A stretch of DNA of 64,000 nt. Source: Patescibacteria group bacterium (GTDB taxonomy: Bacteria > Patescibacteriota > Patescibacteriia > 2-01-FULL-39-33). Location of the stretch: the NCBI GenBank assembly GCA_041662745.1, contig JBAZRV010000004.1, positions 6,315 through 70,314 on the forward strand, given 5' to 3'. Shown piece by piece: positions 293-55,238 of the stretch. The notes beneath the pieces were generated by a model. That model saw only the letters and a list, made by a program, of their open reading frames with translations, made no database searches and was not told where the DNA came from. The position numbers and the translations under genes were made by a program. How positions within the stretch are numbered: the first letter of the stretch is position 1; each line of letters starts with the position of its first letter.

Positions 293-1066
293 ATGGGTAA
301 TCCCACGGTGAGCCGTACCCTGTCGGTACACAAGGAACACGAAGTATTATTGAAACTGGAAGCCGCCGGCCTCGATGACGATCTGGCCCAAAAAGTCATT
401 GACTCCAAAGACAACGACTTGGCCATGAAAGTCATCCGGCTGATTCAGAACGGCGGATTCGAAGCGACCACGAGCCAGAAACGCGCCCGCGAAATCATGG
501 GCACGAACATGTTCGGCGTCGAGGAAGCTATCCTCCATTTCGGCGTCAATCCCAGCAAAGCGCAACTGGCCGCTCTCTCCGAGATTCCGTTCTCCGAGGC
601 GGTACTCGCTCAATGCAAAGACACGCACGTTTTGGTGGCAATCTTCCCGCTGTCCATCCTGGAGATCCGCGGCAAGGTAAAGCGCGGTCTGTTCTACAGC
701 TACGAGGACTCCTGGTATAACAAACAGTCGTTCGCGAAAGACCGCGGCGAAGTGGGTTGGCAACTCGTGCGCAAAACGCCGGTTGACAACTCAACGGCGA
801 AGAACTGGACGGAACAGCAAGCGTTGCTGGGCAAGGAAGACGAGACGCCGACCGCCCAGGTTCTGGCCTACACCATCATCGGGCATTTCCTGGCCACAGG
901 CGAACGGCTGTTCGAAAAGATCTACGTCCGTACGTCCACTGTGGTTTTGGTCGGCGGCCGCGTCCACCTCGGCTTCTTCGATGCTGCCGGCCTCGGGGTC
1001 TACGGCCGCTGGGCTGACGATCGCCATGGCGCTCTGGCCGTCTCCTCCGCCCGGAAGTCCAACTGA
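293..1066 (+). CDS. DGR target protein A, 257 aa, of unknown fold. Its C-terminal 38 codons are the variable repeat VR1a.
   Basis: Complete ORF whose 3' end (940-1054) aligns with TR1 (2522-2636). Every mismatch falls at a TR adenine. It is a paralog of the 1370-2149 ORF, sharing the REIMGTNMFGVEEA...GWQLVRKTPV core. Confidence 0.75.
   Translation: MGNPTVSRTLSVHKEHEVLLKLEAAGLDDDLAQKVIDSKDNDLAMKVIRLIQNGGFEATTSQKRAREIMGTNMFGVEEAILHFGVNPSKAQLAALSEIPFSEAVLAQCKDTHVLVAIFPLSILEIRGKVKRGLFYSYEDSWYNKQSFAKDRGEVGWQLVRKTPVDNSTAKNWTEQQALLGKEDETPTAQVLAYTIIGHFLATGERLFEKIYVRTSTVVLVGGRVHLGFFDAAGLGVYGRWADDRHGALAVSSARKSN
940..1054 (+). repeat. DGR variable repeat VR1a
   Basis: 115-bp near-copy of TR1. Differences occur only where TR1 has A, for example TR AAC vs VR GGC/CAC/TTC. 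The 3' GC-rich end GGCCGTCTCCTCCGCCCGG is identical in TR1 and both VRs, consistent with an IMH-like element. Confidence 0.8.
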
Positions 1067-1078
1067 ACCTTGAATCTT

Positions 1079-1140
1079 TGAGGGCTTGACCCTCTTGATT
1101 CCTTGAGCCTTCGGCGCGAATTTTTTTCGTCGCCGAAGGC
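1079..1140 (+). promoter_or_regulatory. Hairpin pair downstream of VR1a: GAGGG-CTTGA-CCCTC and GCCTTCGGCG...CGCCGAAGGC. It may be a DGR-associated stem-loop and/or a terminator. The same pair recurs at 2162-2222 after VR1b.
   Basis: Inverted repeats read directly from the sequence. The same structure occurs after both VR-bearing genes. Confidence 0.4.
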
Positions 1141-1369
1141 TCACTTCTTTCCTACTATAACCATTGATAGTTTAATAATATTAGTAATTGTCCCTTAAAA
1201 TAAATGTGATAAAAAAATAGATTGAAATGAGCGTTTTGGATGCCAAAGAATTTTGGTTTCTAAAACGCTCGTCTCATTCCGAGACAAGACGTAACAACGG
1301 GATCGTATTCCCATTTCTAGTCGCCCCAAACAAAAAAAACAAGGGGCTAACAGAAAAGGAGCACATACC

Positions 1370-2149
1370 ATGAAGTGGACAGAAATCCTTGCAGGAGAAT
1401 TGCATGCAGCCGAGCAACGCCTCAGGGTCGCCTTGGGCGACAAGGCCAGCGAAGTTGTCGAGAAAATCAACAGCGATGCCGCTTTTGCGGACTCGGTCGC
1501 CGCGCAAATCATTATGATGGCGGGCGAGGCTGACAAAAGTTCCACCAGCTTGAACCCGCAATGGTTGCGCGCCCGCGAAATCATGGGCACGAATATGTTC
1601 GGCGTCGAAGAAGCCATGAAGCATTTCGGCGTCAATCCCAGCAAAGCACAGCTCGCCGCTCTCGCCGAGATTCCCTTCTCGGAGGCAGTGCTCGAACAGT
1701 GCAAGAACACGCATGTCCTGGTTGCGGTCTTTCCGCTGTCGATTCTCGACATCCGGAGCAAGGCCAATGTCAAGAAGCTGTTCTACGACCAGTCGTGGTA
1801 CAATGGCGAGTCCTTCGCCAAAAGCCGCGGCAAGATCGGCTGGCAACTCGTGCGCAAAACGCCGGTTAGCAACTCAACGTCAAAGAATTGGAGCGAACAG
1901 CAAGCTCTGATCAGTCAAGACGATGAAACGCCGACCGCCCAGGTTCTGGCCTACACCATCATCGGGCATTTCCTGGCCACGGGTGAACGGCTGTTCGAAC
2001 GCATTTACGTCCGTACATCGTCTGTGGGTTCGGGCGGCAGCCGCGTCCCCCTCGGCGACTTCGCTGCTGCCGGCCTCCGGGTCTACGGCAGCTGGGATGA
2101 CCATCGCGATGGCGATCTGGCCGTCTCCTCCGCCCGGAAGTCCAACTGA
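1370..2149 (+). CDS. DGR target protein B, 259 aa, a tandem paralog of target A. Its C-terminal VR1b spans 2023-2137.
   Basis: The core is about 80% identical to ORF 293-1066, with a divergent N-terminal 65 aa. The 3' 115 bp match TR1 with about 16 substitutions, all at TR adenines. Confidence 0.75.
   Translation: MKWTEILAGELHAAEQRLRVALGDKASEVVEKINSDAAFADSVAAQIIMMAGEADKSSTSLNPQWLRAREIMGTNMFGVEEAMKHFGVNPSKAQLAALAEIPFSEAVLEQCKNTHVLVAVFPLSILDIRSKANVKKLFYDQSWYNGESFAKSRGKIGWQLVRKTPVSNSTSKNWSEQQALISQDDETPTAQVLAYTIIGHFLATGERLFERIYVRTSSVGSGGSRVPLGDFAAAGLRVYGSWDDHRDGDLAVSSARKSN
2023..2137 (+). repeat. DGR variable repeat VR1b
   Basis: Same structure as VR1a. All mismatches against TR1 are at A positions: AAC-AAC-AAC in TR1 becomes TAC-GGC-AGC. 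Confidence 0.8.
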
Positions 2150-2521
2150 ACCTTGAATCTTTGAGGGCTTGACCCTCTTGATTCCTTGAGCCTTCGGCGC
2201 GAATTTTTTCGCAATGCCGGAGGCTTATTTTCTTTTTAAACTATTTTTTGCTATAATTATTTTGTTCGCTAATGCAGGCGCGGTTACGGCTTCGCCTCGC
2301 GGACAGCTCATCTTTTTGAGACGTCACCAGAGTATCGCCGTCCACGGATTGCGATAGCGTGTGATAAAAAGATTGAGATGGAACTTCTTGCCCGCTCTTA
2401 GTGGAGGTGATCTTACGCTATCTGCTCCCGAATAAAATACAGGAGAGAAAGGACATAGGCCTGTTTTTTAATAGGCAGTAAACCTTAATTTCCAGTGATC
2501 CTGGCGAGAGCTGGCAAATAA

Positions 2522-2636
2522 TGTGGATTCGGACGGCAACCGCGTCAACCTCGGCAACTTCGATGCTACCGGCCTCAAGGTCAACAACAACTGGGATGAC
2601 AATCGCAATGGCGATCTGGCCGTCTCCTCCGCCCGG
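2522..2636 (+). repeat. DGR template repeat TR1, the 3' remnant of a third copy of the target gene. It is noncoding and asparagine(AAC)-rich in the target reading frame.
   Basis: Translates as DSDGNRVNLGNFDATGLKVNNNWDDNRNGDLAVSSAR, with AAC codons at every position that varies in VR1a and VR1b. The upstream gene body is degraded and no start codon remains. A hairpin AACACCCTCCTG-TTAC-AGGAGGGTGTT follows at 2659-2686. Confidence 0.8.
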
Positions 2637-2700
2637 CACTTCCATCTTTTCTTACTAAAACACCCTCCTGTTACAGGAGGGTGTTTCCATTTATTATGGC

Positions 2701-3348
2701 CTACAATTCCTTAGTTGACTTAATCCAGCCGCCGAGCATTCGGCCGACTTCATCGACATCCTGTTGCAATGTCACGTACTTATTAGCCGCTAAGGATTTA
2801 GTTTCTTTCATCAGCCGCAAGAATATCCTGAGGAAATTCAGCTTTAAGCTGGCTTTTTGCAAAACCGGCAGCTTGTCTGTTTTGGACAGCTGGCTGGCCA
2901 GCAATATGCTTTCCAAAATATCCAACAGGACATTTTCACAGCGCTGCCACAAAGTGTAGCGGTCTTGCTTAGCCACGCTTTTCCTGAGGATATAAAATTG
3001 CTTGTAGAGATCATAGATTTTTTTAAAGATCGGTATGTCAAAATCTTCCATATAATTATGAAAATTTATAAAGATATTTATAATGAGATGATTTCCCTGG
3101 AGAATTTGTTTTCCGCCTGGGATAAGTTCAAGATTGGCAATTTTTGCTGGAGTTGGATTTTCCTGATCAATGCTATAATAATTATTATATGCGATTAAAA
3201 CTAAACGCCCATCATCACCCCTTAATATTTTTAAAAGACCCAACTCTTGGTCAAGAATAATCTGACCTACAAGATTAAATTCAGTTATTTCGAATGATAC
3301 AAATTCATCCATATAATTATAATTAATACCTGTATTGAATATTACCAA
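2701..3348 (-). CDS. avd: Avd-like four-helix-bundle protein (23S rRNA IVS protein family) with an in-frame 99-aa N-terminal extension. The Avd module probably starts at the internal Met (2701-3051).
   Basis: The C-terminal 116 aa (IFKKIYDLYKQFYILRKS...DEVGRMLGGWIKS) resemble the four-helix-bundle/Avd family. It is paralogous to ORF 52348-52869 (NEIGRMLGGWRKR). It lies convergent with and immediately downstream of TR1. Confidence 0.6.
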   Translation of the reverse strand: MVIFNTGINYNYMDEFVSFEITEFNLVGQIILDQELGLLKILRGDDGRLVLIAYNNYYSIDQENPTPAKIANLELIPGGKQILQGNHLIINIFINFHNYMEDFDIPIFKKIYDLYKQFYILRKSVAKQDRYTLWQRCENVLLDILESILLASQLSKTDKLPVLQKASLKLNFLRIFLRLMKETKSLAANKYVTLQQDVDEVGRMLGGWIKSTKEL

Positions 3349-3460
3349 AAAATCGCCATTTAGGCGATTTTATTTAGCTAACAAAATAATATACATATAC
3401 TATTTGAGTCGCCCCACCATCATAGGACGGTGAGTCGGCTCCGATACTTAGTTCTACTAC

Positions 3461-5174: not shown

Positions 5175-5258
5175 CCAATCGGTATTTGCCCAATTTTCGG
5201 GCAGAAGTTTCAGAATTCGCCAACCAGTTTTGGCCTGAAATTCAAATTTTTTGGCTTC
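5172..5258. repeat. Inverted repeat IR-B, left arm of a perfect 87-bp pair. The right arm is 6683-6769.
   Basis: CCGCCAATCGGTATTTGCCCAATTTTCGGGCAGAAGTTTCAGAATTCGCC...GGCTTC matches the reverse complement exactly at 6683-6769. Confidence 0.85.
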
Positions 5259-5320
5259 TGATTCTTAAAGAATTGCCAAAAGCGGGCTTTAAAAAAATTA
5301 TTAGTTTTAATCTTAAATAT

Positions 5321-6823
5321 ATGAAGTACTTTATTTACGCTCGCAAGTCCACTGACAGCGAAGAACGGCAGATCTTAAGCATTGAATCCCAGATTGCTGA
5401 GTTGTATGAATTTGCCGCCAAAGAAAAACTGGAAATCGCCGCTTCGCTGTGCGAAGCGAAAACCGCCAAAGAACCTGGCCGAACTGTGTTCGGAGAAATG
5501 CTGGATCGGATTTGCGCCGGCGAAGCCGGAGGAATTTTGGCTTGGCACCCGGATCGGCTGGCTAGAAATTCAATTGACGGAGGCAAAATCATTTATCTTT
5601 TGGACACAGGCCAGATCAAAGACCTAAAGTTTCCCACATTTTGGTTTGACAGCACACCGCAAGGAAAATTCATGATGAACATTGCCTTTGGCCAAAGCAA
5701 GTATTACATCGACAATTTAAGCGAGAATATACGGCGAGGCCATCGGGCTAAACTAAGAAAAGGGATTTGGCCAGTCTTTGCCCCGCTTGGCTATCTAAAT
5801 AATCACAGGACCAAAGGCATAGAATTAGACAGGGAAAGGGCGCCTTTGGTCAAAAAATGCTTTGAGCTATACGCTACGGGCGAATATACCCTCAAAGCCC
5901 TAAGAGATGTAATCAGCCAAGCGGGGCTAAGAAGCTACCGAGGCAATGTTCTGGCCGTGGCCTGTGTCCAAAGAATGCTCAAGAACTCGATCTACTATGG
6001 CCTATTCAAATTTAACGACGAATTGCATGAGGGAACGCACGAGCCGATTATTTCCAAGAAACTTTTTGATGAAGCTCAACAAGTAATGAGTAATCGAGGC
6101 AAGAAGAAACGAAAGCGAAAACACGAATTTGCTTTTTCTGGATTAATGAAATGTGGGGTCTGCGATTGCCTCATAACGGCGGAAAAACAAAAAGGCCATA
6201 ATTACTATCGTTGCACCAAGAAAAAACAAACCTGCGACGAAAAATGTCTGCGCGAAGAATTACTTGTTGAACAGATGAAAGAGATAATTCAAAAAGTTTC
6301 TTTGCCTGACGATTGGGCAAAAAATATGCTCGCCGAGATTGAGTTGGAACGAGAACAAGCAAGAAAAGACGGCATGATTTTTGGGCAAAAACTGGAAGTG
6401 AGAAAAACAGAAATCGAGCAAACCATGGAACGACTGCTTGATTTGTTTATTGAAGGCAAGCATATCGAGCCAGAGGAATATCACGCTAAAAAACAAAAAC
6501 TTCTCATCGAGAAGTGTGAGCTTAATCAACAAATCAAGGATTTTGCCCAAAAAGGAAATAATTGGCTCGAACCCATGAAAGAAATGATTTTAGCCAGCAG
6601 CCAAGCCAAAATTCTATTGTCGCGAGGCGACAATTCGCAAATCCGAGCATTTCTAAAAAATATCGGCTCGAACTTCATTTTGGAAGCCAAAAAATTTGAA
6701 TTTCAGGCCAAAACTGGTTGGCGAATTCTGAAACTTCTGCCCGAAAATTGGGCAAATACCGATTGGCGGAGAGAGAGGGATTCGAACCCTCGGTACGCCC
6801 ATAATAGACGTACAACGGTTTAG
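5321..6823 (+). CDS. Large serine recombinase: resolvase/invertase catalytic domain, recombinase domain and zinc ribbon. The C-terminus is encoded within IR-B and the tRNA-Ser 3' end.
   Basis: N-terminal YARKSTDSEERQILSIESQ...HPDRLARN is a serine-recombinase catalytic motif. CGVCDC...YYRCTKKK is a Zn ribbon. The ORF reads through the IR-B right arm into the tRNA. Confidence 0.8.
   Translation: MKYFIYARKSTDSEERQILSIESQIAELYEFAAKEKLEIAASLCEAKTAKEPGRTVFGEMLDRICAGEAGGILAWHPDRLARNSIDGGKIIYLLDTGQIKDLKFPTFWFDSTPQGKFMMNIAFGQSKYYIDNLSENIRRGHRAKLRKGIWPVFAPLGYLNNHRTKGIELDRERAPLVKKCFELYATGEYTLKALRDVISQAGLRSYRGNVLAVACVQRMLKNSIYYGLFKFNDELHEGTHEPIISKKLFDEAQQVMSNRGKKKRKRKHEFAFSGLMKCGVCDCLITAEKQKGHNYYRCTKKKQTCDEKCLREELLVEQMKEIIQKVSLPDDWAKNMLAEIELEREQARKDGMIFGQKLEVRKTEIEQTMERLLDLFIEGKHIEPEEYHAKKQKLLIEKCELNQQIKDFAQKGNNWLEPMKEMILASSQAKILLSRGDNSQIRAFLKNIGSNFILEAKKFEFQAKTGWRILKLLPENWANTDWRRERDSNPRYAHNRRTTV
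6683..6769. repeat. Inverted repeat IR-B, right arm. It overlaps the 3' end of tRNA-Ser by 6 nt.
   Basis: Exact reverse complement of 5172-5258. Confidence 0.85.
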
Positions 6824-6858
6824 CAAACCGCCGCCTTCAGCCACTCGGCCATCTCTCC
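6764..6858 (-). tRNA. tRNA-Ser (anticodon GCU) with a long variable arm
   Basis: The reverse complement reads GGAGAGATGGCCGAGTGGCTGAAGGCGGCGGTTTGCTAAACCG...GGGTTCGAATCCCTCTCTCTCCGCCA. The anticodon loop is TT-GCT-AA, and CCA is encoded. Confidence 0.8.
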
Positions 6859-8181: not shown

Positions 8182-10086
8182 CTAATTGTTCTGCGATAGC
8201 ATTGCCTCAGCAAATTCCTTCTTGGCCGCTTCAATTTCCAACAACTGCCGCGGATCGGAAGTAATCAACTGATCTTCAGAATATGAGGCCACCACTTTAA
8301 CGGCCACGTGTTTGGCGCCGGCAAAGAAAATACCTTCGCCCACCGCGCTTTCCAACAACAAATATTTTTCTCCTTCAGTCAATAAAAAGGTCTTTTGCAC
8401 CAAATCAATGGCCGCCGGAGACTGCTTAAGCAATAATTGAAGGGCGGAATTATTGACAATGGCCTGGCCATAAGGAGAGGTCAAAAAATCATTAACATCC
8501 TGAGTGATGGTCGTAACGCCCAAATAATATTTGCGGCAACGTTTGACCAGAGCAAAAATGAATTTGGCTGAATCTTCGCGCTGCATCAGCCACCAAGCTT
8601 CATCTACCACTAAAATCCTCTTTTTCATTTCGGAACGGACAATATTCCAAATATAATTGACAATAGTATAGATTGCCAGCGGCTTAAGCTCATCTTCCAA
8701 ATCACGGACGGAAAAAACCACCAGCTGATTATTTAATTGGACGTTTGTCGGATGATTAAGCAGGCCGGAAAAAGTGCCTTCAGTATATTTTTTAAGGCGC
8801 AAAACAATACTGCTGCCGCCCTCCATACCTTCCAAAATATCCTGAAAATCCTGCATGATAGGCGGTTCCACCGAACGCAAATCAGCATCGGGAGTGATGT
8901 CTTTCTTGGCATAAGTTTCCAACAATGCGCGATCAATAATGGAATCCTCCTCCGGCGTAACATCGCCGATCATTAATCGCACTAACCCCTTAACGGTAAT
9001 AACGGCATTGCGGATAATATCTGCCGGTTTGGCGTCTTCACCGATAGCCCGAGGCAAGTCAAAGGGATTGATTTTGCCCTCAGAATTAAGCGAAATATCG
9101 ATGTAAGTGCCGCCAACGGCTTCACACAGGTGATTATACTCCCGTTCCGGATCAATAATGATCACATCGGTTCCAAACATCATGCTGCGCAAAACTTCCA
9201 ATTTGATCGTATATGACTTGCCGGCGCCGGAAGTGGCAAACACCACGGAATTGGCATTCTGCAAGGAGAAACGATCAAACAGGATTAAACTGTTATTGTG
9301 GCGGTTAATGCCATACAAGATGCCGTGATCGGAAGTCAAATCCGAGGATACGAACGGAAAAGAAGACGCGGCCGGCGAAGAGTTTAGATTGATATAGACT
9401 TGAAGTTCATCATACGCCATGGGCAAGGTAGAATTAAATCCTTGCTCAGCCTGATAAAACACTCGGCGAGAAAAAATCAGAGTGCCGCCGAAAAAGTTCT
9501 CAATGCGTTCCGAAGTTTTGTCCAATTCCTCCAATGTCTTGGCATATAAAGTCACATACAAAGAAAATTGAAAAAAATGCTCAATACCTTGAGTCAGATC
9601 ATCGCGCAATTTCTCCATATCGCGCAAAGCGGTTTCAGACAAAGGATCGCGGGGCGCTCCCTTTTCCGCCGCGCCGATAATCGTCGCTTCCAACACGCCG
9701 ACTTTTTTCTTTAATTGCTTCAAAATGACCGCGGCTTTAACCGGAAAAAAATACATGGCCATGTCCGCCTCAATATCCATATTGATAATCGGCGCAAACC
9801 AGCCGACGGCGATATAGCGAGGATATTCAAAAACAAAAATCGTCCGAATATAAAGCTCGCCCAACCTGATATGATCGGAATTAACCTCCAAGGCGGCCGG
9901 AGCAATCAAATCCCGGACAGAAACGACGCCGCGCCGATAAATTCTCTCCTCCTCCAACACTTCGCGCGCCGTTTGCAACTCCTTAACTTCCGCTTGTTTC
10001 TTCTGCTGTTGCGTTGGCGGCGGCGGCGGAGCATAACCGACTGAAGCCGGGGTTGTTTGCTTATTGATATCTTCTGGAGTAAACAT
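8182..10086 (-). CDS. virB4: VirB4/TrbE-family T4SS ATPase, C-terminal ATPase portion of a split gene
   Basis: Walker A VFATSGAGKSYT and Walker B ILVVDEAWWL are present, at a size and arrangement typical of VirB4. Confidence 0.75.
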   Translation of the reverse strand: MFTPEDINKQTTPASVGYAPPPPPTQQQKKQAEVKELQTAREVLEEERIYRRGVVSVRDLIAPAALEVNSDHIRLGELYIRTIFVFEYPRYIAVGWFAPIINMDIEADMAMYFFPVKAAVILKQLKKKVGVLEATIIGAAEKGAPRDPLSETALRDMEKLRDDLTQGIEHFFQFSLYVTLYAKTLEELDKTSERIENFFGGTLIFSRRVFYQAEQGFNSTLPMAYDELQVYINLNSSPAASSFPFVSSDLTSDHGILYGINRHNNSLILFDRFSLQNANSVVFATSGAGKSYTIKLEVLRSMMFGTDVIIIDPEREYNHLCEAVGGTYIDISLNSEGKINPFDLPRAIGEDAKPADIIRNAVITVKGLVRLMIGDVTPEEDSIIDRALLETYAKKDITPDADLRSVEPPIMQDFQDILEGMEGGSSIVLRLKKYTEGTFSGLLNHPTNVQLNNQLVVFSVRDLEDELKPLAIYTIVNYIWNIVRSEMKKRILVVDEAWWLMQREDSAKFIFALVKRCRKYYLGVTTITQDVNDFLTSPYGQAIVNNSALQLLLKQSPAAIDLVQKTFLLTEGEKYLLLESAVGEGIFFAGAKHVAVKVVASYSEDQLITSDPRQLLEIEAAKKEFAEAMLSQNN

Positions 10087-45888: not shown

Positions 45889-47151
45889 GTGCCACTTAAG
45901 TACTGCCTTTATGCCAGAAAATCGACCGAGGCCGATGACAAGCAAGTGTTATCCATCGAATCCCAAGTCAAAGAGATGCTGGCTCTGGCTAGCAAGGATT
46001 CCTTAGATGTAGTAGAAATCAAGCGGGAAGCCCACTCATCTAAGGATGTTGGCCAAAGGCCGATTTACAACGAAATGATTTCTGAAATCAGAGCGGGCAA
46101 GTTTAACGGCATTCTGACCTGGGCGCCGGATCGGCTCAGCCGCAATGCCGGAGATTTGGGCTCAGTTGTGGATTTGATGGATCAGAAACTACTTTTGGAA
46201 ATCAGGACGTATGGCCAGAAGTTCAGCAATAATCCCAATGAGAAATTCCTGTTAATGATTTTAGGCAGCCAAGCCAAGCTGGAAAATGACAATAAAGCGA
46301 TTAACATTAAAAGAGGACTCCGAACCAGGTGCGAAATGGGCTGGCGGCCGGGCGTGGCTCCGACCGGATACTTAAATGAAAAACACGCCGACAAAAAGTG
46401 CCAATCCCGATTAGATCCCAAGAGAGCTGTCATTATCAAAAATATGTTCGAGAAATCGGCTAATGATAATTGGAGTGGCCGAAAAATCTACAGATGGCTT
46501 CGCGAGATTGACTTTAGAACTAAGACCGGCAAGCGATTAGTTTTGGCCAATGTCTATCTGATTTTAAGAAATCCATATTACTACGGTGAATTTGAATTCC
46601 CGGTGGGTAGTGGTAATTGGTACAGTGGCAAACATACGCCGATTATCACTAAGGAACTATTCGACAAAACGCAATTAGCCCTTAACGACCACAATCTACC
46701 TAAGACCGAGAGCAAGGAATTCGCCTTCACTAAACTAATTAAATGCGGCTATTGCGGTTCGGGCATTTCGGCTGATGAGAAATTCAAGAAGCTTAAAAAC
46801 GGCGGCACTAACCGCCATGTCTATTATTTTTGCTCCAAGGCCAGAAATATAGATTGCAAAAATCAACCGATTAATGAAACCAACTTAATCACTGAACTGG
46901 CCGGCTTAATCGATCGGATCAGCTTGGATGAACTGGGCGTCCAGCAGAAAATTGAGGATGAATTCAAAAGATACAACAAATTCAGAATCAGCGTGCTGGG
47001 TAAAAAGAATGAGGAATGCAATAGCGAAGTGGACATCAAGAATTTCGTCAAATACCTACTTAAAGACGGCACGATTCTGGAAAAACGAGAATTGCTTGCT
47101 TGCCTTAAAAGCAGATTGATCCTAAAAGACAGGCAAATCAGTTTGGAATAA
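45889..47151 (+). CDS. Large serine recombinase, 420 aa
   Basis: YARKSTEADDKQVLSIESQ...APDRLSRN catalytic motif and a C-terminal CGYCG...YYFCSK Zn ribbon. Confidence 0.8.
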   Translation: MPLKYCLYARKSTEADDKQVLSIESQVKEMLALASKDSLDVVEIKREAHSSKDVGQRPIYNEMISEIRAGKFNGILTWAPDRLSRNAGDLGSVVDLMDQKLLLEIRTYGQKFSNNPNEKFLLMILGSQAKLENDNKAINIKRGLRTRCEMGWRPGVAPTGYLNEKHADKKCQSRLDPKRAVIIKNMFEKSANDNWSGRKIYRWLREIDFRTKTGKRLVLANVYLILRNPYYYGEFEFPVGSGNWYSGKHTPIITKELFDKTQLALNDHNLPKTESKEFAFTKLIKCGYCGSGISADEKFKKLKNGGTNRHVYYFCSKARNIDCKNQPINETNLITELAGLIDRISLDELGVQQKIEDEFKRYNKFRISVLGKKNEECNSEVDIKNFVKYLLKDGTILEKRELLACLKSRLILKDRQISLE

Positions 47152-47164
47152 ATCTAAAACTAAA

Positions 47165-47192
47165 AATACCGCGGAAAAACCGCGGTATTTTG
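47165..47192 (+). terminator. Rho-independent terminator after the recombinase gene
   Basis: AATACCGCGGAAAAACCGCGGTATTTT. Confidence 0.65.
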
Positions 47193-47241
47193 TGGCTAAA
47201 TCAGTGATACCTCTCGGTCATTTGACTTAGCATAAGCGTGT

Positions 47242-47314
47242 TGCGGGGGGCGGATTCGAACCGCCGACCTCTTGGTTATGAGCCAAGCGAGCTGCCGGAC
47301 TGCTCTACCCCGCG
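47242..47314 (-). tRNA. Initiator tRNA-fMet (CAU)
   Basis: The reverse complement reads CGCGGGGTAGAGCAG...GGCTCATAACCAAG...GGTTCGAATCCGCCCCCCGCA, with the C1:A72 mismatch typical of bacterial initiator tRNA. Confidence 0.8.
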
Positions 47315-47359
47315 ATAATATTTTATTTTCCCTCTCTCCTTAAAAAGATGAGACTGGTG

Positions 47360-47441
47360 TGCCCGAGGAGAGACTCGAACTCTCACATATTGCTATACAC
47401 GATTTTGAGTCGTGCGCGTCTACCAGTTCCGCCACTCGGGC
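47360..47441 (-). tRNA. tRNA-Leu (CAA)
   Basis: The reverse complement reads GCCCGAGTGGCGGAACTGGTAGACGCGCACGACTCAAAATCGTG, followed by a long variable arm and GAGAGTTCGAGTCTCTCCTCGGGCA. Confidence 0.8.
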
Positions 47442-51422: not shown

Positions 51423-52481
51423 TTAGCAAGTATAAGCCAAATTAGCAATTTTTCGTTGTAACTTATAGCTCTGGCCGTGACTCAATAAACCCAAATATGA
51501 ATTTATGGTCTCCAAACTATGGTTTCCTCTCACTCGCCTGAACATTCTTCTTTTACTCGTCGTCCGAAACACCCGATGGTCAAAAAAAGTCACCCAGCCA
51601 AGAAAGTCCAAACCGGAGTTCAGGGTTTTAATGAATAACTTATCAGGATGAAGCATCAGCTTCATTTTATCTCTCAAATATTCATCAATTATTGGAATAA
51701 TATTTTCCAAATATTCTTTATCGTCAGCCATAATCACGAAATCATCGGCATAACGGATATAATGCTTGACTTGCAATTTATGTTTGACGAATTGATCAAA
51801 CTTGTTCATGTAAATATTAACCAAGAGTTGTGAGGTCAGATTGCCTAATGGCAGACCCCTACCACCGCCATTATTCCCACTCTCCCTCTTGTCATTCCCG
51901 CGGAGACGGGAATCCAGGTTATCTTCAATATTATCAAAACTGTCAATTACTTCATCCAATAATCCTAAAATACTTTTATCCGGGATATACTCGGCCAGAA
52001 TCTCTTTCAATATCCTATGGTCAATATTGGCAAAAAATTTCCTGATGTCACCCTTCAAAATCCAGCAAGTGCGGGTATTATTTTTGCTGGCGGCATAAGC
52101 GAATTCCCTGAACCGAGCCAGGGCCTTGTGCGTGCCCTTGCCCAGTCGGCAAGAATAGGAATCGGCAATGAAAGTCCGATCAAAAAACGGATACAAAATC
52201 CGATAAATCGCATGGTGAACCAATCTATCGCGGACAGACGCCTTATGAATTTGCCGCGGTTTGGGATCGCAGATCTTAAAGGCCTGGTAGCCGCCGTGGC
52301 GATAAACACCGGTTGCCAAATACCGATGCAATGCGATAAGATTATCCATGAGGCGCAATTGGAATTCCTGCGCGTCTTTTCTGCCCCTTTTGCCCCTGAC
52401 AAATTCCTGCCAAGCCAATAATAAATTATCAAGACAAATAATATCTTCAAAAGTATGGCTCAATTTGATTTTCCCGTTCAT
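51423..52481 (-). CDS. Diversity-generating retroelement (DGR) reverse transcriptase. It contains an in-frame MITE-like insertion.
   Basis: YADD box (YIRYADDFVIM). Motif 4 is LGNLTSQ, the DGR-type I/LGxxxSQ rather than the group II QGxxxSP. SYSCRLGKGTHKAL motif. There is no room for intron domains V/VI. TR, avd and VR are adjacent. RBS AAAGGA precedes the ATG at 52481. Confidence 0.75.
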   Translation of the reverse strand: MNGKIKLSHTFEDIICLDNLLLAWQEFVRGKRGRKDAQEFQLRLMDNLIALHRYLATGVYRHGGYQAFKICDPKPRQIHKASVRDRLVHHAIYRILYPFFDRTFIADSYSCRLGKGTHKALARFREFAYAASKNNTRTCWILKGDIRKFFANIDHRILKEILAEYIPDKSILGLLDEVIDSFDNIEDNLDSRLRGNDKRESGNNGGGRGLPLGNLTSQLLVNIYMNKFDQFVKHKLQVKHYIRYADDFVIMADDKEYLENIIPIIDEYLRDKMKLMLHPDKLFIKTLNSGLDFLGWVTFFDHRVFRTTSKRRMFRRVRGNHSLETINSYLGLLSHGQSYKLQRKIANLAYTC

Positions 52482-52869
52482 AATAATTCCTTTAATTACC
52501 CCCCCCCCGACGGAAGATTTATCAATCATCAAAAAACTCGTTGAGACCTTTAAGCTCTGGCACGGCTATGTAAAGCATTTCCCCAAAACCTCCCGCTATT
52601 CGTTGGGCGGAAAAATAGACGGCCTGTTTTCTGATCTGATTGAATCGGCATACACCGCCGGCTATCTGCCCCAAACGGAAAAACTGCCGTTCATAGAAAA
52701 ATCCATCGACAAACTGAATTTGCTTAATTTTTTTATGCAAATCGCCTGGGAGCTGAAGGCGTTTGACAACAACAAATACAAAAATATTTCCTTATTGCTT
52801 AATGAAATCGGCCGAATGCTGGGCGGCTGGCGCAAACGGATAAAAAAAGAAACTTCCGCCCCAAAATAA
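52348..52869 (+). CDS. avd: Avd-like four-helix-bundle protein. The functional start is probably near 52515; no ATG is in frame there, so a non-canonical start or frameshift is possible.
   Basis: The C-terminal 115 aa (IKKLVETFKLWHGY...NEIGRMLGGWRKRIKK) resemble the four-helix-bundle/Avd family. It is located between the RT and TR2. Confidence 0.55.
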   Translation: MRRNWNSCASFLPLLPLTNSCQANNKLSRQIISSKVWLNLIFPFIIIPLITPPPTEDLSIIKKLVETFKLWHGYVKHFPKTSRYSLGGKIDGLFSDLIESAYTAGYLPQTEKLPFIEKSIDKLNLLNFFMQIAWELKAFDNNKYKNISLLLNEIGRMLGGWRKRIKKETSAPK

Positions 52870-52889
52870 CCGGGCGGAAGAATGGAGAG

Positions 52890-53020
52890 ATTTGCGGAAA
52901 CAAACGCGAAACGGTTGTCGCTATTGTAGAAATTGTCAGGCCTGCCATTGTTGGCATTAAGCCACGGCTCATCGTCATTACGTTTGACGTTGAACACATT
53001 CGGGTTGCCGTCCGAGTCGG
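52890..53020 (-). repeat. DGR template repeat TR2
   Basis: 131 bp, about 80% identical to 53352-53482. In the target frame it encodes NDDEPWLNANNGRPDNFYNSDNRFAFVSAN, rich in AAC codons. About 25 mismatches to the VR, all at TR adenines on the minus strand. Confidence 0.85.
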
Positions 53021-53342
53021 TTAAATGTCCAAAACGCCGCCAAAACCACCGCCCCTTGATCCGCCGGCTGACGGACTCTCGGGACTGAATCTTATCCGTG
53101 AGCTAAACTCACTTAGCGCCTTAGACCAAGTATCTTCATTTTTAGCAATTATAATTGATACTGGCAAAAGGCGTGCCCGTTGCCACTCCGCAAATTATAA
53201 TTGCAGAATTCGATCATCCGAAGCCGTAACCGCAGATATGTCAATCTACTATCCTAAATATATTTTAACAAACAAAAATAAAAATAAAAAGGAATTAAGG
53301 GTTTAAGGATTAAAGAATAACAATACTTAAGATTTTAAGGAT

Positions 53343-55238
53343 TTAAGTGTTACTTGCGGAAACAAACGCGAAACGGCTGACGCCATAGTAGAAACGGCCA
53401 GGCCCGCCACAGTAGGCACCAAGCCACGGCTCACCGCCACTACGCTCGACGTCGAACACACTCGGGTCGCCGCCCGAGCCGGAAATTGGTTCCATACCGA
53501 TTAAAATCCATTCGCCCAGCGGTTGGTCAGTATATTGTAAACGAAGCTGGGGGCCGGTTTCCGGCGGGCAGAATTCTAAGCCGAGTTTCTTGGCTTGTTC
53601 GTAAATATCCTTGAGCTTGGCGCCGCCTTTGAAACCCAAATCCGCAACAGCCAAGATAATTAACTTTTCTTTGGTTTCTTTTTTGGCCACGGCAAATTCC
53701 GGCTTGCCCATTATGTCTTTGGCCCAATCACTGGTCTGCCCGCCTTTTTTCTCTATGGCTTTAATGAAATCATCTTTGGTTTTTAGTCCGGTGCCCAGTT
53801 CAATGGTTTTCTGTTTGATTCGGCCCTCGGGGAATTCAGTGTAAATATGTTCCAGGTTTGAGGGCAATAGTTTGAAGATGTTGAGGAATAATTCGCCGAC
53901 ATAGACCTTAATGTCTTTTTCTTGTTTAAGCGCTTGCTCTAATTCCTGTTTGTTGTGGATAATCTGGCTCGGTTTGCAGTCAAAAATTACGAGCATGTCG
54001 GCATTCTTGTCCCGTTGACCCCGCAGTTCTTTGATGCGCGGATCTTTCTGGTAGCCAAAGCCCTCAATCGGCGAATTTATTTCGTAAAGGAAGATGAGAT
54101 CTTCTTTGTCTAATGACTTACCTTGCCGGATTTTCTTATCCAGAGCGGTTAAGCGGCTCATGTCCTGCGATTTCTTCTCGTAGCTCTCATGTCCGGGCAG
54201 AGTTCTGGCTTTATCTTGGGCGATATCCACTAAAGCCGGTTCAAGATTTTGTTCCGCATTAATACCCCCAATTTCAGCTATTTGATCATTCTGCATTCTG
54301 ATGGCGATGCGGGGAATCTTAGGTTGGCCTTGATCATTATTGCTGTAATACACATAAAAATCGCCTTCTTTTAATTGCGCCTGGGCCGTGCTTTCTCCGG
54401 CCGTGCACCAGCCCGTGCCGTGGCCTTGGAGTGACTGGCATAGTTTTTGGTAGTCGTCGCCTTGATCGTATTTGACCCATTGGCCCTGGATATTTTCCTT
54501 TTGCTCTTGGCTGGCGGGGGTAACTTTTTCAATGGCATAGGCGTAAAGCTTGGCGAAATTGGCGCCTTCCAGTATTTTGCCCAGTTCTGCATTGATTGGC
54601 GAAGACGCGTTATCCACACCATGCCGTTTATTGACAATATCCAAAACCAAAGCCAAGGCCTCGCGGTTAAGATCGGGAAAAACGCCCCGAGTGAATTGGC
54701 TGCGTTTTTTGAATTCGTGCTTCTGCTTATCAAATTCAGCCAGGCCAGTCACGGAACGAAGGGCAAAATACTTGAGCCAAGTCGGATACATGGCATCTTC
54801 CGACGACAGGTAATCAAACCAGTTGCTTAAGCCGGCCTCCTGGTCTTTGACCGCGGATTCCAAAATCTGCTCCTGCATTTCCCGGGTTACTTCAATATCG
54901 CCATGGCCTTGTTCGCGGGCGACGCGCTTGTCCAAATCAAAAAAATTACCCGGTAAATCGTCAATGGTTTTATGGCGCAAGGGAATGGCCGAATCTAGGA
55001 TTTTATTCTTAAGGTAATCCAACCTGAATTCCCTAAGATTTTGGCCCTTGAGATATTCCTCTTCCGGCGTAGAAAAAATTTCCTCCAAACGATCCAGGTA
55101 AGTGCCAAGTCGGCCTTCCGGAGTATTAGCGACTTTTTCGCCGACACGGATTTTTTTGCGCGCTGAAGCAGACGCCACTTCTGGAGTTTTTTGCAGATCT
55201 TCAAATTTATTATGGAGAAAACGTTCTGGGGAGGGCAT
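53343..55238 (-). CDS. DGR target protein, 631 aa, with a C-terminal C-type-lectin/FGE-like variable domain and no signal peptide
   Basis: Complete ORF. The last 45 codons are the VR. The C-terminal ...GxxRxxxGxSRFAFV pattern is typical of DGR CLec-fold targets. Confidence 0.7.
   Translation of the reverse strand: MPSPERFLHNKFEDLQKTPEVASASARKKIRVGEKVANTPEGRLGTYLDRLEEIFSTPEEEYLKGQNLREFRLDYLKNKILDSAIPLRHKTIDDLPGNFFDLDKRVAREQGHGDIEVTREMQEQILESAVKDQEAGLSNWFDYLSSEDAMYPTWLKYFALRSVTGLAEFDKQKHEFKKRSQFTRGVFPDLNREALALVLDIVNKRHGVDNASSPINAELGKILEGANFAKLYAYAIEKVTPASQEQKENIQGQWVKYDQGDDYQKLCQSLQGHGTGWCTAGESTAQAQLKEGDFYVYYSNNDQGQPKIPRIAIRMQNDQIAEIGGINAEQNLEPALVDIAQDKARTLPGHESYEKKSQDMSRLTALDKKIRQGKSLDKEDLIFLYEINSPIEGFGYQKDPRIKELRGQRDKNADMLVIFDCKPSQIIHNKQELEQALKQEKDIKVYVGELFLNIFKLLPSNLEHIYTEFPEGRIKQKTIELGTGLKTKDDFIKAIEKKGGQTSDWAKDIMGKPEFAVAKKETKEKLIILAVADLGFKGGAKLKDIYEQAKKLGLEFCPPETGPQLRLQYTDQPLGEWILIGMEPISGSGGDPSVFDVERSGGEPWLGAYCGGPGRFYYGVSRFAFVSASNT
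53352..53482 (-). repeat. DGR variable repeat VR2 at the 3' end of the 631-aa target gene
   Basis: Encodes SGGEPWLGAYCGGPGRFYYGVSRFAFVSAS. Every difference from TR2 is at an adenine-templated position. The 3' 23 nt (TTGCGGAAACAAACGCGAAACGG on the plus strand) are identical in TR and VR, consistent with an IMH. Confidence 0.85.

What the first reader, a model, noticed from the sequence alone, without database searches (positions are those of the whole stretch)
51423..55238. Complete diversity-generating retroelement: RT, Avd, TR and VR in a 631-aa lectin-fold target
A 131-bp template repeat (52890-53020) and a variable repeat (53352-53482) differ at about 25 positions, and every one is an adenine in the TR. 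This is the hallmark of DGR mutagenic retrohoming. The adjacent reverse transcriptase carries the DGR-specific LGxxxSQ motif 4 and the YADD box. An Avd-like four-helix-bundle gene sits between the RT and the TR. The architecture is unusual. Avd is on the opposite strand to TR, RT and target, and is divergent from the RT. Its ORF has no in-frame ATG near the expected start. The target has no signal peptide, so its variable ligand-binding surface may act inside the cell, or it may be exported by the nearby secretion system.
Basis: partly seen in the sequence, partly recalled or inferred. Interest (0 to 1): 0.75.

Follow-up and report, generated by a model that had tools for sequence, protein, structure and literature searches.

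The report
Complete DGR of a Patescibacterium
This is a real, complete diversity-generating retroelement of the layout already known to be standard in Candidate Phyla Radiation bacteria, but comparing it with about 150 relatives shows two features I found no description of: a structured RNA in front of the template, and a slippery repeat at the start of the accessory gene avd.

Summary
On the minus strand, TR (53022-52891) and VR (53484-53353) differ at 26 of 132 positions. All 26 are adenines in TR. The RT's closest solved relative is the Bordetella DGR RT. Avd passes Pfam's bAvd cut-off. The target's C-terminal 177 aa model as a C-type-lectin-like fold.

The architecture is not unusual. TR-(avd)-RT, called B3, accounts for 90% of published CPR DGRs, and CPR targets without signal peptides are already reported. 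No secretion system lies nearby.

Comparison with relatives added three things.
1. A ~235-nt structured RNA with its own extended -10 promoter sits directly 5' of TR. It has 71 base pairs, 59 with compensatory changes, and no Rfam match. A long-range helix clamps it to the sequence just 3' of TR.
2. The missing ATG of avd has an explanation. A poly-C or (CT)n repeat sits in the 5' end of 90% of these avd genes. Its length varies between otherwise identical contigs. The window's C10 puts avd one base out of frame with the upstream ATG.
3. A second, RT-less DGR lies at 293-3350.

Verdict: a new member of a known kind, with undescribed features that can be tested.

The parts
53343..55238 (-). Target gene, 631 aa. 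It belongs to a conserved Patescibacteria family with no Pfam or NCBIfam match.
   Evidence: ORF. More than 2697 homologues, all from Patescibacteria-type MAGs, with no Pfam domain. 447 GTDB species genomes encode a relative. No Pfam, NCBIfam or PDB sequence match.
53346..53876 (-). C-terminal domain of the target (residues 455-631), C-type-lectin-like. It carries the VR in its last ~45 residues.
53353..53484 (-). Variable repeat (VR)
   Evidence: 132 nt aligned to TR with 26 mismatches, all at TR adenines.
53354..53376 (-). IMH-like 3' segment of VR, identical to TR (CCGTTTCGCGTTTGTTTCCGCAA). This is the 3' limit of mutagenesis.
   Evidence: Alignment. The equivalent ...CCGCAAG / ...CCGAAA(C/G) ends are conserved across loci.
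53290..53342 (-). Tandem 8-nt repeats (ATCCTTAA, AATCTTAA, ATCCTTAA, ACCCTTAA) directly after the stop codon. Role unknown.
   Evidence: Family D2. In relatives the repeats follow the VR even when the TR module lies elsewhere or is inverted. Mean 4.7 CTT[TAG][GA] motifs per 96 nt against 0.9 in shuffles, with spacing peaked at 8 nt.
53263..53271 (-). Extended -10 promoter of the TR RNA (TGTTAAAAT)
   Evidence: TGnTA(T/A)A(A/C)T is aligned in all 30 loci, 6-10 nt before the first conserved RNA helix. The simple -35/-10 scan does not call it.
53027..53256 (-). Structured 5' domain of the TR RNA. Helices: P1 53242-53212, P2 53202-53193 with 53156-53147, P3 53185-53162, P4 53126-53115 with 53038-53027, P5 53111-53099, P6 53085-53051.
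   Evidence: RNAalifold: 55 pairs, 47 with compensatory changes. The count of structure pairs: 91.6% of cells paired against 41-48% when partners are slid, and 0 of 500 shuffles reach the observed values. The window's own centroid fold recovers P2-P6, z = -3.07. Covariance model hit at 53148-53025, 91.8 bits. Coordinates. No Rfam match.
53126..53146 (-). A-rich linker plus the ACUUGG motif (five of its six positions invariant, the sixth at least 90% conserved). This is the 5' strand of the long-range helix and the candidate primer strand.
   Evidence: Alignment columns 187-197 pair with 507-517: 83.5% paired, 6 pairs with compensatory changes. A197-U507 and U199-A505 are invariant, and U200-A504 holds in 25 of 27 sequences.
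52891..53022 (-). Template repeat (TR)
52880..52890 (-). Pyrimidine-rich tail directly 3' of TR. This is the 3' strand of the long-range helix. In the window it has one A.C mismatch.
52843..52879 (-). Hairpin (TTCCGCCC / GGGCGGAA) followed by a U-run. It looks like a terminator and may also be an Avd-binding stem-loop. It lies antisense to the 3' end of avd.
   Evidence: Conserved in all loci. All 6 pairs show compensatory changes (helix 9). The terminator scan does not call it because its loop is 10 nt. Handa et al. (preprint) place Avd-binding stem-loops just downstream of TR.
52465..52869 (+). avd. The conserved body starts at about 52510. The only in-frame canonical start is TTG 52465. ATA at 52483-52485 stands where L001 has ATG.
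   Evidence: Pfam bAvd 6.9e-12, above its cut-off. NCBIfam DivGenRetAVD 68 bits, below its cut-off of 80. Gene callers call a 134-aa Avd on identical contigs. Start-codon comparison.
52499..52508 (+). Poly-C tract (C10) in the avd 5' end, read as poly-G upstream of the RT ATG. Candidate slippage switch.
   Evidence: It is the only C/G run of 7 or more in the 64-kb window. 104 of 116 related avd genes carry poly-C or (CT)n here. In the species of L005 the run is 7, 8 or 9, and at least 11 on one contig that ends inside it, between identical flanks.
51423..52481 (-). DGR reverse transcriptase, 352 aa from ATG 52481
   Evidence: Pfam RVT_1. Best PDB match is 8ub7_A at 1.6e-38, against 2e-18 to 5e-18 for retron-type and group II intron RTs. 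LGNLTSQ and YADD are aligned with 31 relatives.
51895..51912 (-). Palindrome inside a lineage-specific 18-aa insertion in the RT loop between motifs 3 and 4

Best explanation
This is a chromosomal diversity-generating retroelement of the CPR type: architecture B3 of Wu et al., and by its Patescibacteria origin probably RT clade 2 of Roux et al. (the RT phylogeny was not tested here).

Shown.
- A TR/VR pair carries a pure adenine-mutagenesis signature.
- The RT is of the DGR type.
- An Avd gene is present.
- The VR is the last ~45 codons of a C-type-lectin-like domain of a conserved, apparently non-secreted Patescibacteria protein.
- In sister populations, the same gene family varies almost only in that stretch.

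Inferred mechanism.
- A discrete ~415-nt RNA is made from its own extended -10 promoter on the minus strand.
- It consists of a ~235-nt multi-helix 5' domain, the 132-nt TR, a short pyrimidine tail and a hairpin with a U-run.
- The tail pairs with an A-rich linker inside the 5' domain, so TR is held as a closed loop.
- Helix P4 abuts the 5' end of TR. This is a plausible stop for cDNA synthesis.
- The conserved ACUUGG motif lies opposite the last adenines of TR. This is a plausible cis-primer, in the way Sp A56 acts in the Bordetella phage.
- In effect, the functions of the Bordetella 'Sp' RNA, which lies 3' of TR, would sit 5' of TR here, because the 3' side is occupied by antisense avd.
- RT-Avd copies TR with misincorporation at A, and the cDNA replaces VR up to the IMH-like CCGCAA end.

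Expression of avd appears to be gated by a slippery poly-C or (CT)n tract in its 5' end. In this genome the C10 tract leaves avd out of frame with the upstream ATG. The element has clearly worked in the past but is probably in a low or off state now.
For: TR/VR: 26 of 26 mismatches at TR adenines, 35 of 38 adenines at codon positions 1 or 2.

RT: best solved relative is 8ub7_A at 1.6e-38, about 20 orders of magnitude better than retron-type or group II intron RTs. I take 8ub7-8ube to be the Bordetella bRT of the bRT-Avd-RNA structures, from the 328-aa length and my own knowledge. The RT carries LGNLTSQ and YADD.

Avd: Pfam bAvd above its cut-off.

Lectin fold.

Same module in relatives: about 40 of 80 species loci have the divergent avd/RT pair, and TR/VR pairs with nearly all mismatches at TR adenines were found in 35 loci.

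Activity in the family: within 90%-identity clusters, variable residues are concentrated in the last 55 aa. The counts are 23 versus 6, 18 versus 1 and 16 versus 2.

RNA: conserved promoter. 71 pairs, 91.6% of cells paired, 59 pairs with compensatory changes, and both controls are far lower. The long-range helix has 6 covarying pairs. A sequence pattern drawn from the RNA alone retrieved at least 119 metagenome stretches, and about 100 of the 121 loci held show avd(-) then RT(+) at the expected distance, many with unrelated targets. The covariance model hits 38 of the 80 species loci, 37 of which have a detected Avd, RT or TR (the other is a hit cut off at a contig end); a few RT-bearing loci had no hit.

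SSR.
Against: - No VR polymorphism is visible for this strain. Three other assemblies (ERZ27249449, SRR18595301, SRR6484324) are 100% identical across the element, and its 90% cluster has a single member.
- avd lacks an in-frame ATG.
- Avd scores below NCBIfam's cut-off, 68 against 80 bits.
- The window's long-range helix has an A.C mismatch.
- The priming and stop roles are inferred from geometry alone. The ACUU/AANU pairing is invariant, so covariation neither supports nor refutes it.
- SSR gating is not simple. In the species of L009 and L215-L221, the tract is G9 in all six assemblies that span it (one further contig ends just before it), avd is 'off' by my rule, and the VRs still differ.
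- Homopolymer lengths in assemblies can be wrong.
Confidence: 0.85

Rival explanations
1. The DGR is a decaying remnant. avd has lost its start codon for good, and the VR is a frozen record of past mutagenesis.
For: There is no in-frame ATG. The proximal ATG of L001 is ATA here, and the distal ATG is out of frame. The VR is identical in four assemblies. The linker/tail helix has a mismatch. The RT carries an extra 18-aa insertion. Wu et al. note that many DGRs in databases are inactivated.
Against: The RT ORF and all its motifs are intact. The avd body is open and 81-82% identical to relatives. An in-frame TTG exists and gene callers use it. The defect is a single C in a tract that demonstrably changes length in the sister species. 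More than half of all related avd genes are in the same 'off' configuration, which is not what one-way decay of individual copies predicts.
Confidence: 0.2
2. The SSR is not a switch. avd is translated constitutively, either from a non-ATG start such as TTG 52465 or ATA/ATT, or after RNA-polymerase or ribosome slippage on the tract. On this reading, the poly-purine tract serves the RT mRNA leader instead.
For: There is an in-frame TTG in the window. In the L215 species, avd is 'off' by my rule yet VRs differ between assemblies, and the RT ORF reads through the G-run there. The observed ON fraction of 43 in 104 is not far from the one third expected if frame were irrelevant (my arithmetic). Both repeat types are polypurine on the RT strand.
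Against: An ATG with an open frame up to the tract is present upstream in nearly all loci. Only about 17% have a canonical start downstream of the tract. 31 of the 37 long C/G or CT/AG tracts in 705 kb of related loci lie at this one spot. Tract length differs between otherwise identical contigs.
Confidence: 0.3
3. The conserved region 5' of TR is a leader or regulatory RNA, or a protein-binding DNA region, and is not part of the reverse-transcription machinery. The functional 'Sp' still lies 3' of TR, read through the hairpin into antisense avd.
For: Handa et al. (preprint) find stem-loops and up/downstream duplexes using only 40 nt upstream and 100 nt downstream of TR, in DGRs that include CPR ones. 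The hairpin after TR could be an Avd-binding stem-loop rather than a terminator.
Against: Compensatory changes show that selection acts on RNA pairing. The domain always keeps the same strand and distance relative to TR, whatever the target arrangement. Its linker pairs with the sequence immediately 3' of TR. A U-run follows the hairpin in all loci. The downstream sequence is constrained as avd coding sequence.
Confidence: 0.15
4. The TR/VR similarity is an ordinary partial gene duplication that diverged by chance.
For: None beyond the existence of a repeat.
Against: 26 of 26 differences fall at adenines of one copy, about 1e-14 by chance. The same pattern occurs in 35 related loci.
Confidence: 0.01

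Closest known systems
CPR diversity-generating retroelements: architecture B3, TR-(avd)-RT, of Wu et al. 2018 (PMC5758913), and DGR clade 2 of Roux et al. 2021 (PMC8144416)
   Same: The gene order and strands are the same, with avd inverted and divergent from RT. The host is a Patescibacterium. The target has no transmembrane segment or known domain and ends in a C-terminal VR.
   Different: Nothing architectural differs. This copy has avd out of frame with its ATG, an 18-aa insertion in the RT, and a 631-aa target of a family that those papers left uncategorised, as far as I could read them.
Bordetella phage BPP-1 DGR (mtd-avd-TR-Sp-brt) and its bRT-Avd-RNA complex (Handa et al., PMC6182149; preprint 10.1101/2023.10.23.563531)
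   Same: Adenine-specific mutagenesis, an RT of the same clade, and Avd. The VR is at the C-terminus of a CLec-type fold. An IMH-like identical 3' end is present. [quoted passage not shown]
   Different: All BPP-1 genes are on one strand, and the essential structured RNA (Sp, 140 nt) lies 3' of TR. Here avd is antisense on the 3' side, and the large structured domain (~235 nt) lies 5' of TR with its own promoter. Rfam 15 gave no match here at E up to 10, including to any Weinberg RT motif such as RT-10 that it may hold. The partner of the tail lies about 110 nt upstream of TR in this window (about 170 alignment columns), outside the 40-nt window that the preprint surveyed. No GC-rich hairpin follows the VR in this window. 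Tandem 8-nt repeats follow it instead.
Treponema denticola TvpA and FGE-type CLec DGR targets
   Different: There is no detectable sequence similarity and no Pfam FGE-sulfatase or DUF1566 match. The N-terminal 450 residues form a distinct, highly conserved module (GTGWCTAGE, GDFYVYY, PRxAIRM, GFGYxxDPR) of unknown function.
Simple-sequence-repeat contingency loci (phase-variable genes of Neisseria, Campylobacter and Helicobacter)
   Same: A homopolymer or dinucleotide tract sits in the 5' coding region. Both in-frame and out-of-frame alleles occur among assemblies. Tract length differs between otherwise identical sequences.
   Different: The gated gene is an accessory factor of a mutagenic retroelement, not a surface structure. 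The tract lies in the overlapping 5' ends of two divergent genes. Switching has not been observed within a population. I found no paper linking DGRs with phase variation.

Membership tests
Diversity-generating retroelement (DGR) | A TR/VR repeat pair whose differences fall at adenines of TR | tested here: met
   26 of 26 mismatches at TR adenines over 132 nt.
Diversity-generating retroelement (DGR) | A reverse transcriptase of the DGR clade (motif 4 [LI]GxxxSQ, YxDD), not a group II intron or retron RT | tested here: met
   LGNLTSQ and YADD are present. The best PDB sequence match is 8ub7_A at 1.6e-38, against 2e-18 for a retron-type RT and 5e-18 for a group II intron RT. The group II model TIGR04416 scores 134.6 bits, far below its 300-bit cut-off. 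No full phylogeny was built.
Diversity-generating retroelement (DGR) | An accessory variability determinant (Avd) next to TR and RT | tested here: met
   Pfam bAvd PF22296 at 46.2 bits against a cut-off of 40. NCBIfam DivGenRetAVD at 68 bits is below its cut-off of 80.
Diversity-generating retroelement (DGR) | VR at the 3' end of a protein-coding target, ending in an IMH-like segment shared with TR | tested here: met
   VR is the last 44 codons of the 631-aa ORF. A 23-nt identical 3' segment is followed by divergence.
Diversity-generating retroelement (DGR) | A GC-rich inverted repeat downstream of IMH. Wu et al. find it in only 34% of DGRs, so it is not obligatory. | tested here: not met
   There is no GC-rich hairpin within 100 nt after the VR in the window. 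Several relatives have one.
Diversity-generating retroelement (DGR) | Ongoing mutagenic retrohoming, seen as VR polymorphism confined to TR-adenine sites | tested here: inconclusive
   For this strain, four assemblies are identical, and an A-to-N VR pattern found nothing in metagenome contigs. For sister clusters, variation is concentrated in the VR. Read-level data could not be examined.
CPR DGR architecture B3 (Wu et al. 2018) | Order TR-(avd)-RT, with avd on the strand opposite to TR and RT | tested here: met
   Window coordinates. The same holds in all related loci. Definition.
C-type lectin fold DGR variable proteins | The variable residues lie on a CLec-fold domain | tested here: met
Rfam RNA families, including any of Weinberg et al.'s RT-1 to RT-19 motifs (RT-10 = BPP-1 Sp region) that Rfam 15 holds | A covariance-model match at or near the gathering score | tested here: not met
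   No family matched in 52700-53500 even at E up to 10, apart from three chance-level hits.
SSR-mediated phase-variable gene | Repeat tract in the 5' coding region, tract length polymorphic between near-identical genomes, and expression switching with length | tested here: inconclusive
   Tract present and location-specific. Length polymorphism of 7, 8 and 9 (at least 11 on one contig that ends in the tract) in the L005 species, but none in the L215 species or in 9 near-identical locus pairs. Expression cannot be tested here.

The most novel reading that the evidence does not exclude
CPR (B3-type) DGRs use a DGR RNA that is rearranged relative to the Bordetella paradigm. A ~235-nt structured domain 5' of TR would take over the priming, stop and protein-docking roles of the 3' Sp RNA. 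It has its own promoter, is absent from Rfam, and was not covered by the published 40-nt survey.

In addition, the whole mutagenesis machine would be placed under stochastic on/off control by a hypermutable poly-C or (CT)n tract in the overlapping 5' ends of avd and RT. That would be a mutator that is itself phase-variable.

The window's element would then be a phase-off copy, C10 instead of C9.
Probability: 0.35. Interest if true: 0.75.

Novelty: new member of a known kind. Interest (0 to 1): 0.5.

Why it matters
As a DGR it is ordinary for its phylum. DGRs are enriched in CPR bacteria and this layout is their norm.

What it adds is a clean, well-populated comparative set of about 150 loci. 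That set makes two open questions testable.
- How do DGRs with an inverted avd, which have no room for a 3' Sp RNA, prime and bound cDNA synthesis? The covarying 5' domain and its clamp onto the 3' end of TR give concrete nucleotides to mutate.
- Is hypermutation itself switched on and off? Half of the related avd genes are out of frame at a repeat tract that changes length between identical contigs.

The target family is also worth attention. It is a 600-650-aa protein present in at least 447 Patescibacteria species, with an invariant N-terminal module and a DGR-diversified lectin-like tip, and no export signal. This bears on the unresolved question of whether CPR DGR targets act inside the cell.

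Tried and rejected
- Pfam, NCBIfam and PDB sequence searches of the target, as a single sequence and as an 80-sequence profile, gave nothing usable.
- Foldseek against the PDB with the full-length model was uninformative, best E 0.6. A domain-only model was needed.
- A scan of metagenome contigs with the VR written as TR with A replaced by N gave 0 hits, so there are no population variants of this strain in that collection.
- Two viral-contig matches to the RNA pattern (L087, L088) have no RT or Avd and are probably chance.
A 123-position model of its 3' half was used instead.
- The sigma-70 and terminator scan did not call the promoter or the hairpin. Both rest on conservation across loci.
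- Near-identical locus pairs among the fetched loci all had equal tract lengths. They are probably the same populations.
- I could not obtain Paul et al. 2017 (Nat Microbiol 2:17045), the main CPR DGR paper. It may describe some of these features.

Full report
OBSERVATION

The repeat finder gives a 129-nt direct repeat at 52892-53020 and 53354-53482, 82% identical. I read it on the minus strand, the strand of the 631-aa ORF 55238-53343, and extended it to 132 nt. The upstream copy on that strand, 53484-53353, is the end of the ORF and is the VR. The downstream copy, 53022-52891, is non-coding and is the TR.

TR has 38 adenines. 26 of them are replaced in VR (19 by G, 6 by T, 1 by C), and no other position differs. 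With adenines at 29% of positions, the chance of 26 out of 26 is about 1e-14. 35 of the 38 adenines are at codon positions 1 or 2. TR carries 4 AAC and 6 AAT codons, and 20 of 43 residues differ. The repeat ends in a 23-nt identical segment (CCGTTTCGCGTTTGTTTCCGCAA), after which the two copies diverge. This is the adenine-mutagenesis signature of a DGR, and it is not chance.

GENES

The RT is ORF 52532-51423. By alignment with relatives it most likely starts at ATG 52481 (MNGKIKLSHTFEDII). It matches Pfam RVT_1 at 4e-24 and carries LGNLTSQ and YADD. Its best match among solved structures is 8ub7_A, a 328-aa 'Reverse transcriptase' in entries 8ub7-8ube, at 1.6e-38. From its length and my own knowledge I take this to be the Bordetella bRT of the bRT-Avd-RNA structures. 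Retron-type and group II intron RTs follow at 2e-18 or worse. The NCBIfam group II model scores 134.6 bits against a 300-bit cut-off.

Avd lies on the + strand and ends at 52869. Pfam bAvd scores 46.2 bits against a cut-off of 40. NCBIfam DivGenRetAVD scores 68 bits, below its cut-off of 80.

The target has no Pfam, NCBIfam or PDB sequence match. It has no hydrophobic N-terminus or TM-like segment.

HOST AND SURROUNDINGS

The window is cellular. It carries tmRNA, four tRNAs, glyS, infC, topA, dprA, der and parB. The target is 100% identical to MFA6228216.1 of a 'Patescibacteria group bacterium' MAG.

The immediate neighbours are glyS upstream and, downstream, an NYN-domain gene, an M16 peptidase and a GT4 glycosyltransferase. 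The only secretion-like gene is a VirB4/TraG-type ATPase at 8182-10086, beside a 3872-aa ORF. That is 43 kb away, in what looks like an island bounded by a serine recombinase and tRNA-Ser.

IS THE ARCHITECTURE UNUSUAL? NO.

Wu et al. 2018 define architecture B3 as TR-(avd)-RT, with avd on the reverse strand. They state that it accounts for 90% of their CPR set. Roux et al. 2021 describe a Patescibacteria-restricted DGR clade 2 whose targets typically lack transmembrane or other recognisable domains.

I fetched 80 species-level loci encoding relatives of the target; 447 species genomes have one. About 40 of them carry avd and RT, always head to head. TR/VR pairs with nearly all mismatches at TR adenines were found in 35 loci. 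The TR-(avd)-RT block is constant. It lies after the target on the same strand, as here, or after it inverted, or before it inverted.

About half of the loci with full flanks have no DGR at all. The target family is therefore a conserved Patescibacteria protein that is optionally diversified.

TARGET

Seventeen to eighty homologues align over the full length at 45-71% identity. They share invariant motifs (GTGWCTAGE, GDFYVYY, PRxAIRM, FLYEI, GFGYxxDPR) and a hypervariable last ~50 residues.

ACTIVITY

Within 90%-identity clusters of homologues from different samples, variable residues are concentrated in the last 55 aa. The counts are 23 versus 6 elsewhere, 18 versus 1, and 16 versus 2. So these elements are active in nature.

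For the window's own strain I see no variation. The 90% cluster has one member. Three further assemblies from different runs are 100% identical over 2.9-7 kb, VR included. A VR pattern with N at every TR-adenine site found nothing in metagenome contigs. Consensus assemblies cannot show minority haplotypes, so current activity is undecided.

A STRUCTURED RNA 5' OF TR

The ~320 nt between VR and TR are conserved between the window and its closest relative, L001.

Aligning the region upstream of TR from 30 loci shows an extended -10 box, TGnTATAAT-like, at 53271-53263 in the window. A ~235-nt conserved region follows it. This region keeps its strand and distance relative to TR in all three target arrangements.

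RNAalifold on 28 sequences predicts 55 pairs, 47 with compensatory changes. On a full-length alignment of 27 sequences and 575 columns I counted 71 pairs in 9 helices.
- 91.6% of cells are paired, against 41-48% when partners are slid by 1-3 columns.
- 59 pairs have changes on both sides.
- 0 of 500 shuffles reach any observed measure.

The window's own centroid fold recovers P2-P6, with z = -3.07.

One helix is long-range. An A-rich linker (window 53141-53131, AAAUGAAGAUA) pairs with the pyrimidine-rich stretch immediately 3' of TR (52890-52880). Six of its pairs covary, for example AU in 17 and UA in 6 sequences, GC in 16 and AU in 4, and AU in 18 and GC in 5. The window has one A.C mismatch there.

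Directly 3' of the linker comes the ACUUGG motif, five of whose six positions are invariant and the sixth at least 90% conserved. Its A, U and U lie opposite the invariant U and AA at the end of TR. Because these pairs never vary, they say nothing for or against the pairing. Helix P4, 12 bp, ends about 5 nt before TR.

After the tail comes a hairpin with a U-run, antisense to the avd stop codon. It is conserved everywhere, and all six of its pairs covary.

Rfam 15 has no match.

In about 100 of the 121 loci held, avd(-) and RT(+) follow at the expected distance. Many of these have no relative of this target. A covariance model of the 3' half of the domain hits the window at 91.8 bits and hits 38 of the 80 species loci. 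37 of those have a detected Avd, RT or TR, and the other is a hit cut off at a contig end. A few RT-bearing loci had no hit.

Handa et al. (preprint 10.1101/2023.10.23.563531) show that in the Bordetella phage the RNA flanking TR, mainly the 140-nt Sp on the 3' side, wraps bRT-Avd, supplies the cis-primer and forms the stop duplex. Their survey of other DGRs, CPR ones included, used 40 nt upstream and 100 nt downstream of TR. That window would not contain the domain described here.

My reading is that in B3 elements, where antisense avd occupies the 3' side, these functions moved to a 5' domain. On this reading the linker/tail helix delivers the 3' end of TR to ACUUGG (the primer), and P4 marks the stop. 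The structure is shown. The roles are inferred.

WHY avd HAS NO ATG

In L001 the avd ATG and the RT ATG are back to back (CATTATG), and the product begins MIPLIPPPTEN. The window has ATA at that codon (52483-52485).

In L005 that codon is also ATA. L005 is a close relative of the host, with glyS 85%, NYN 84% and Avd 81% identical. There, an ATG 44 nt upstream of a C9 tract is in frame (MGQLDFGVHNNSFNYPPPTENLSIIKK). The window has the same ATG at 52455 at the same distance, but its tract is C10 (52499-52508). That places the ATG one base out of frame. The only in-frame canonical start is TTG 52465, which gene callers use on identical contigs to give a 134-aa product.

This is general. Of 116 related avd genes, 104 have poly-C of 6-14 (51 genes, mostly 9-10) or (CT)n of 8-42 nt (53 genes) in their first ~20 codons.
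- 43 have an upstream ATG in frame.
- 57 have ATGs only in another frame.
- Only about 17% have a canonical start after the tract.

The tract is the only C/G run of 7 or more in the 64-kb window. In 705 kb of related loci, 31 of 37 comparable tracts sit at this spot.

In the species of L005, seven assemblies with identical flanks have G9, G8, G8, G7, G7, G7, and at least 11 on one contig that ends inside the tract. Their VRs differ. This fits a slipped-strand contingency switch.

There are caveats.
- In the L009/L215 species, the tract is G9 in all six assemblies that span it (one further contig ends just before it), although the VRs differ and avd is 'off' by my rule. The RT ORF reads through the tract there.
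- The ON fraction of 41% is not far from one third.
- Homopolymer calls and poly-G contig ends can be artefacts.

I found no paper connecting DGRs with phase variation.

OTHER FEATURES

Tandem 8-nt repeats follow the stop codon: (N)NNCTT(T/A)(G/A), four ATCCTTAA-like copies at 53342-53290. In relatives they follow the VR wherever the TR module lies. The mean is 4.7 motifs per 96 nt against 0.9 in shuffles, and the spacing peaks at 8 nt. Their role is unknown. They might belong to target-site recognition.

The RT has an 18-aa insertion (DSRLRGNDKRESGNN...) in the loop between motifs 3 and 4. It contains a palindrome at 51895-51912, unique in the window. L030 has a different insertion in the same loop.

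A SECOND DGR

The covariance model found a second, weaker copy of the RNA at 2363-2519 on the + strand (35 bits, E 5e-5). It is followed by TR2 at 2522-2636, a hairpin, an avd on the minus strand (within ORF 2701-3348), and only the first ~25 codons of an RT (IYNEMISLENLFSAWDKFK, then unrelated sequence).

Two paralogous 257- and 259-aa genes upstream, 293-1066 and 1370-2149, end in VRs. VR2a at 940-1054 has 20 mismatches, 19 at TR adenines. VR2b at 2023-2137 has 16 of 16. This RT-less module may depend on the RT of the element under study.

VERDICT

The finding is a genuine, complete DGR and a typical member of the CPR B3 class.

Comparison shows that the class has an RNA domain and a repeat tract that I could not find described. 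It also suggests that this particular copy is one cytosine away from an in-frame avd. I could not read Paul et al. 2017, so these features may already be described there.

Noticed in passing
window 293-3350 (VR2a 940-1054, VR2b 2023-2137, RNA domain 2363-2519, TR2 2522-2636, avd2 about 2701-3063 on the minus strand, RT fragment about 3058-3140 on the plus strand): A second DGR module with two paralogous 257/259-aa targets. 19 of 20 and 16 of 16 TR/VR mismatches fall at TR adenines. It has its own diverged copy of the 5' RNA domain (35 bits) and an avd, but only the first ~25 codons of an RT. It may be served in trans by the RT at 51423-52481. There is no repeat tract at its avd/RT junction.
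   Followed up: partly
window 52499-52508; L005, L208-L214; 104 of 116 related loci: A poly-C or (CT)n tract in the overlapping 5' ends of avd and RT. More than half of related avd genes are out of frame with their only upstream ATG. Tract length is 7, 8 or 9 (at least 11 on one contig that ends in the tract) between identical flanks in one species, but constant in another.
   Followed up: yes
window 53290-53342; the 3' flanks of VR in L001-L082: Tandem 8-nt repeats (consensus NNNCTT[T/A][G/A]) start at the target's stop codon. They stay with the VR, not with the TR module. In many relatives a GC-rich hairpin follows them, but not in the window.
   Followed up: partly
window 51859-51930 (palindrome 51895-51912): An 18-aa in-frame insertion in the RT loop between motifs 3 and 4, encoding DSRLRGNDKRESGNN. 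From memory, this peptide resembles translations of a widespread palindromic repeat. It is the only copy in the window. L030 has an unrelated insertion in the same loop.
   Followed up: partly
L005 versus the window, and L001 versus the window: Similarities are discordant. L005 shares 85% glyS, 84% NYN and 81% Avd with the window, but only 47% of the target. L001 shares 71% of the target and 82% Avd, but only 48% glyS. This suggests that target-plus-DGR cassettes are exchanged between lineages or recombine at this locus.
   Followed up: no
window 5186-28109: A probable integrated element next to tRNA-Ser (6764-6858). It includes a serine recombinase (5186-6823), a VirB4/TraG-like ATPase (8182-10086), a 1080-aa ORF and a 3872-aa ORF with no Pfam match tested. 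This is the only 'secretion-like' system in the window, 43 kb from the DGR.
   Followed up: partly
window 45889-47441: A second large serine recombinase (45889-47151) lies next to tRNA-Met and tRNA-Leu (47240-47441), about 4 kb from the DGR-flanking genes.
   Followed up: no
L021 and L042: Two target loci in which no TR, RT or Avd was detected still show the 8-nt repeats, the extended -10 box and the start of the RNA domain after the stop codon. They may be decayed or rearranged DGRs.
   Followed up: no
L009 and L049; L221/L222: Some relatives carry two tandem full-length copies of the target gene with identical 210-nt 3' ends, and two copies of the RNA domain.
   Followed up: no
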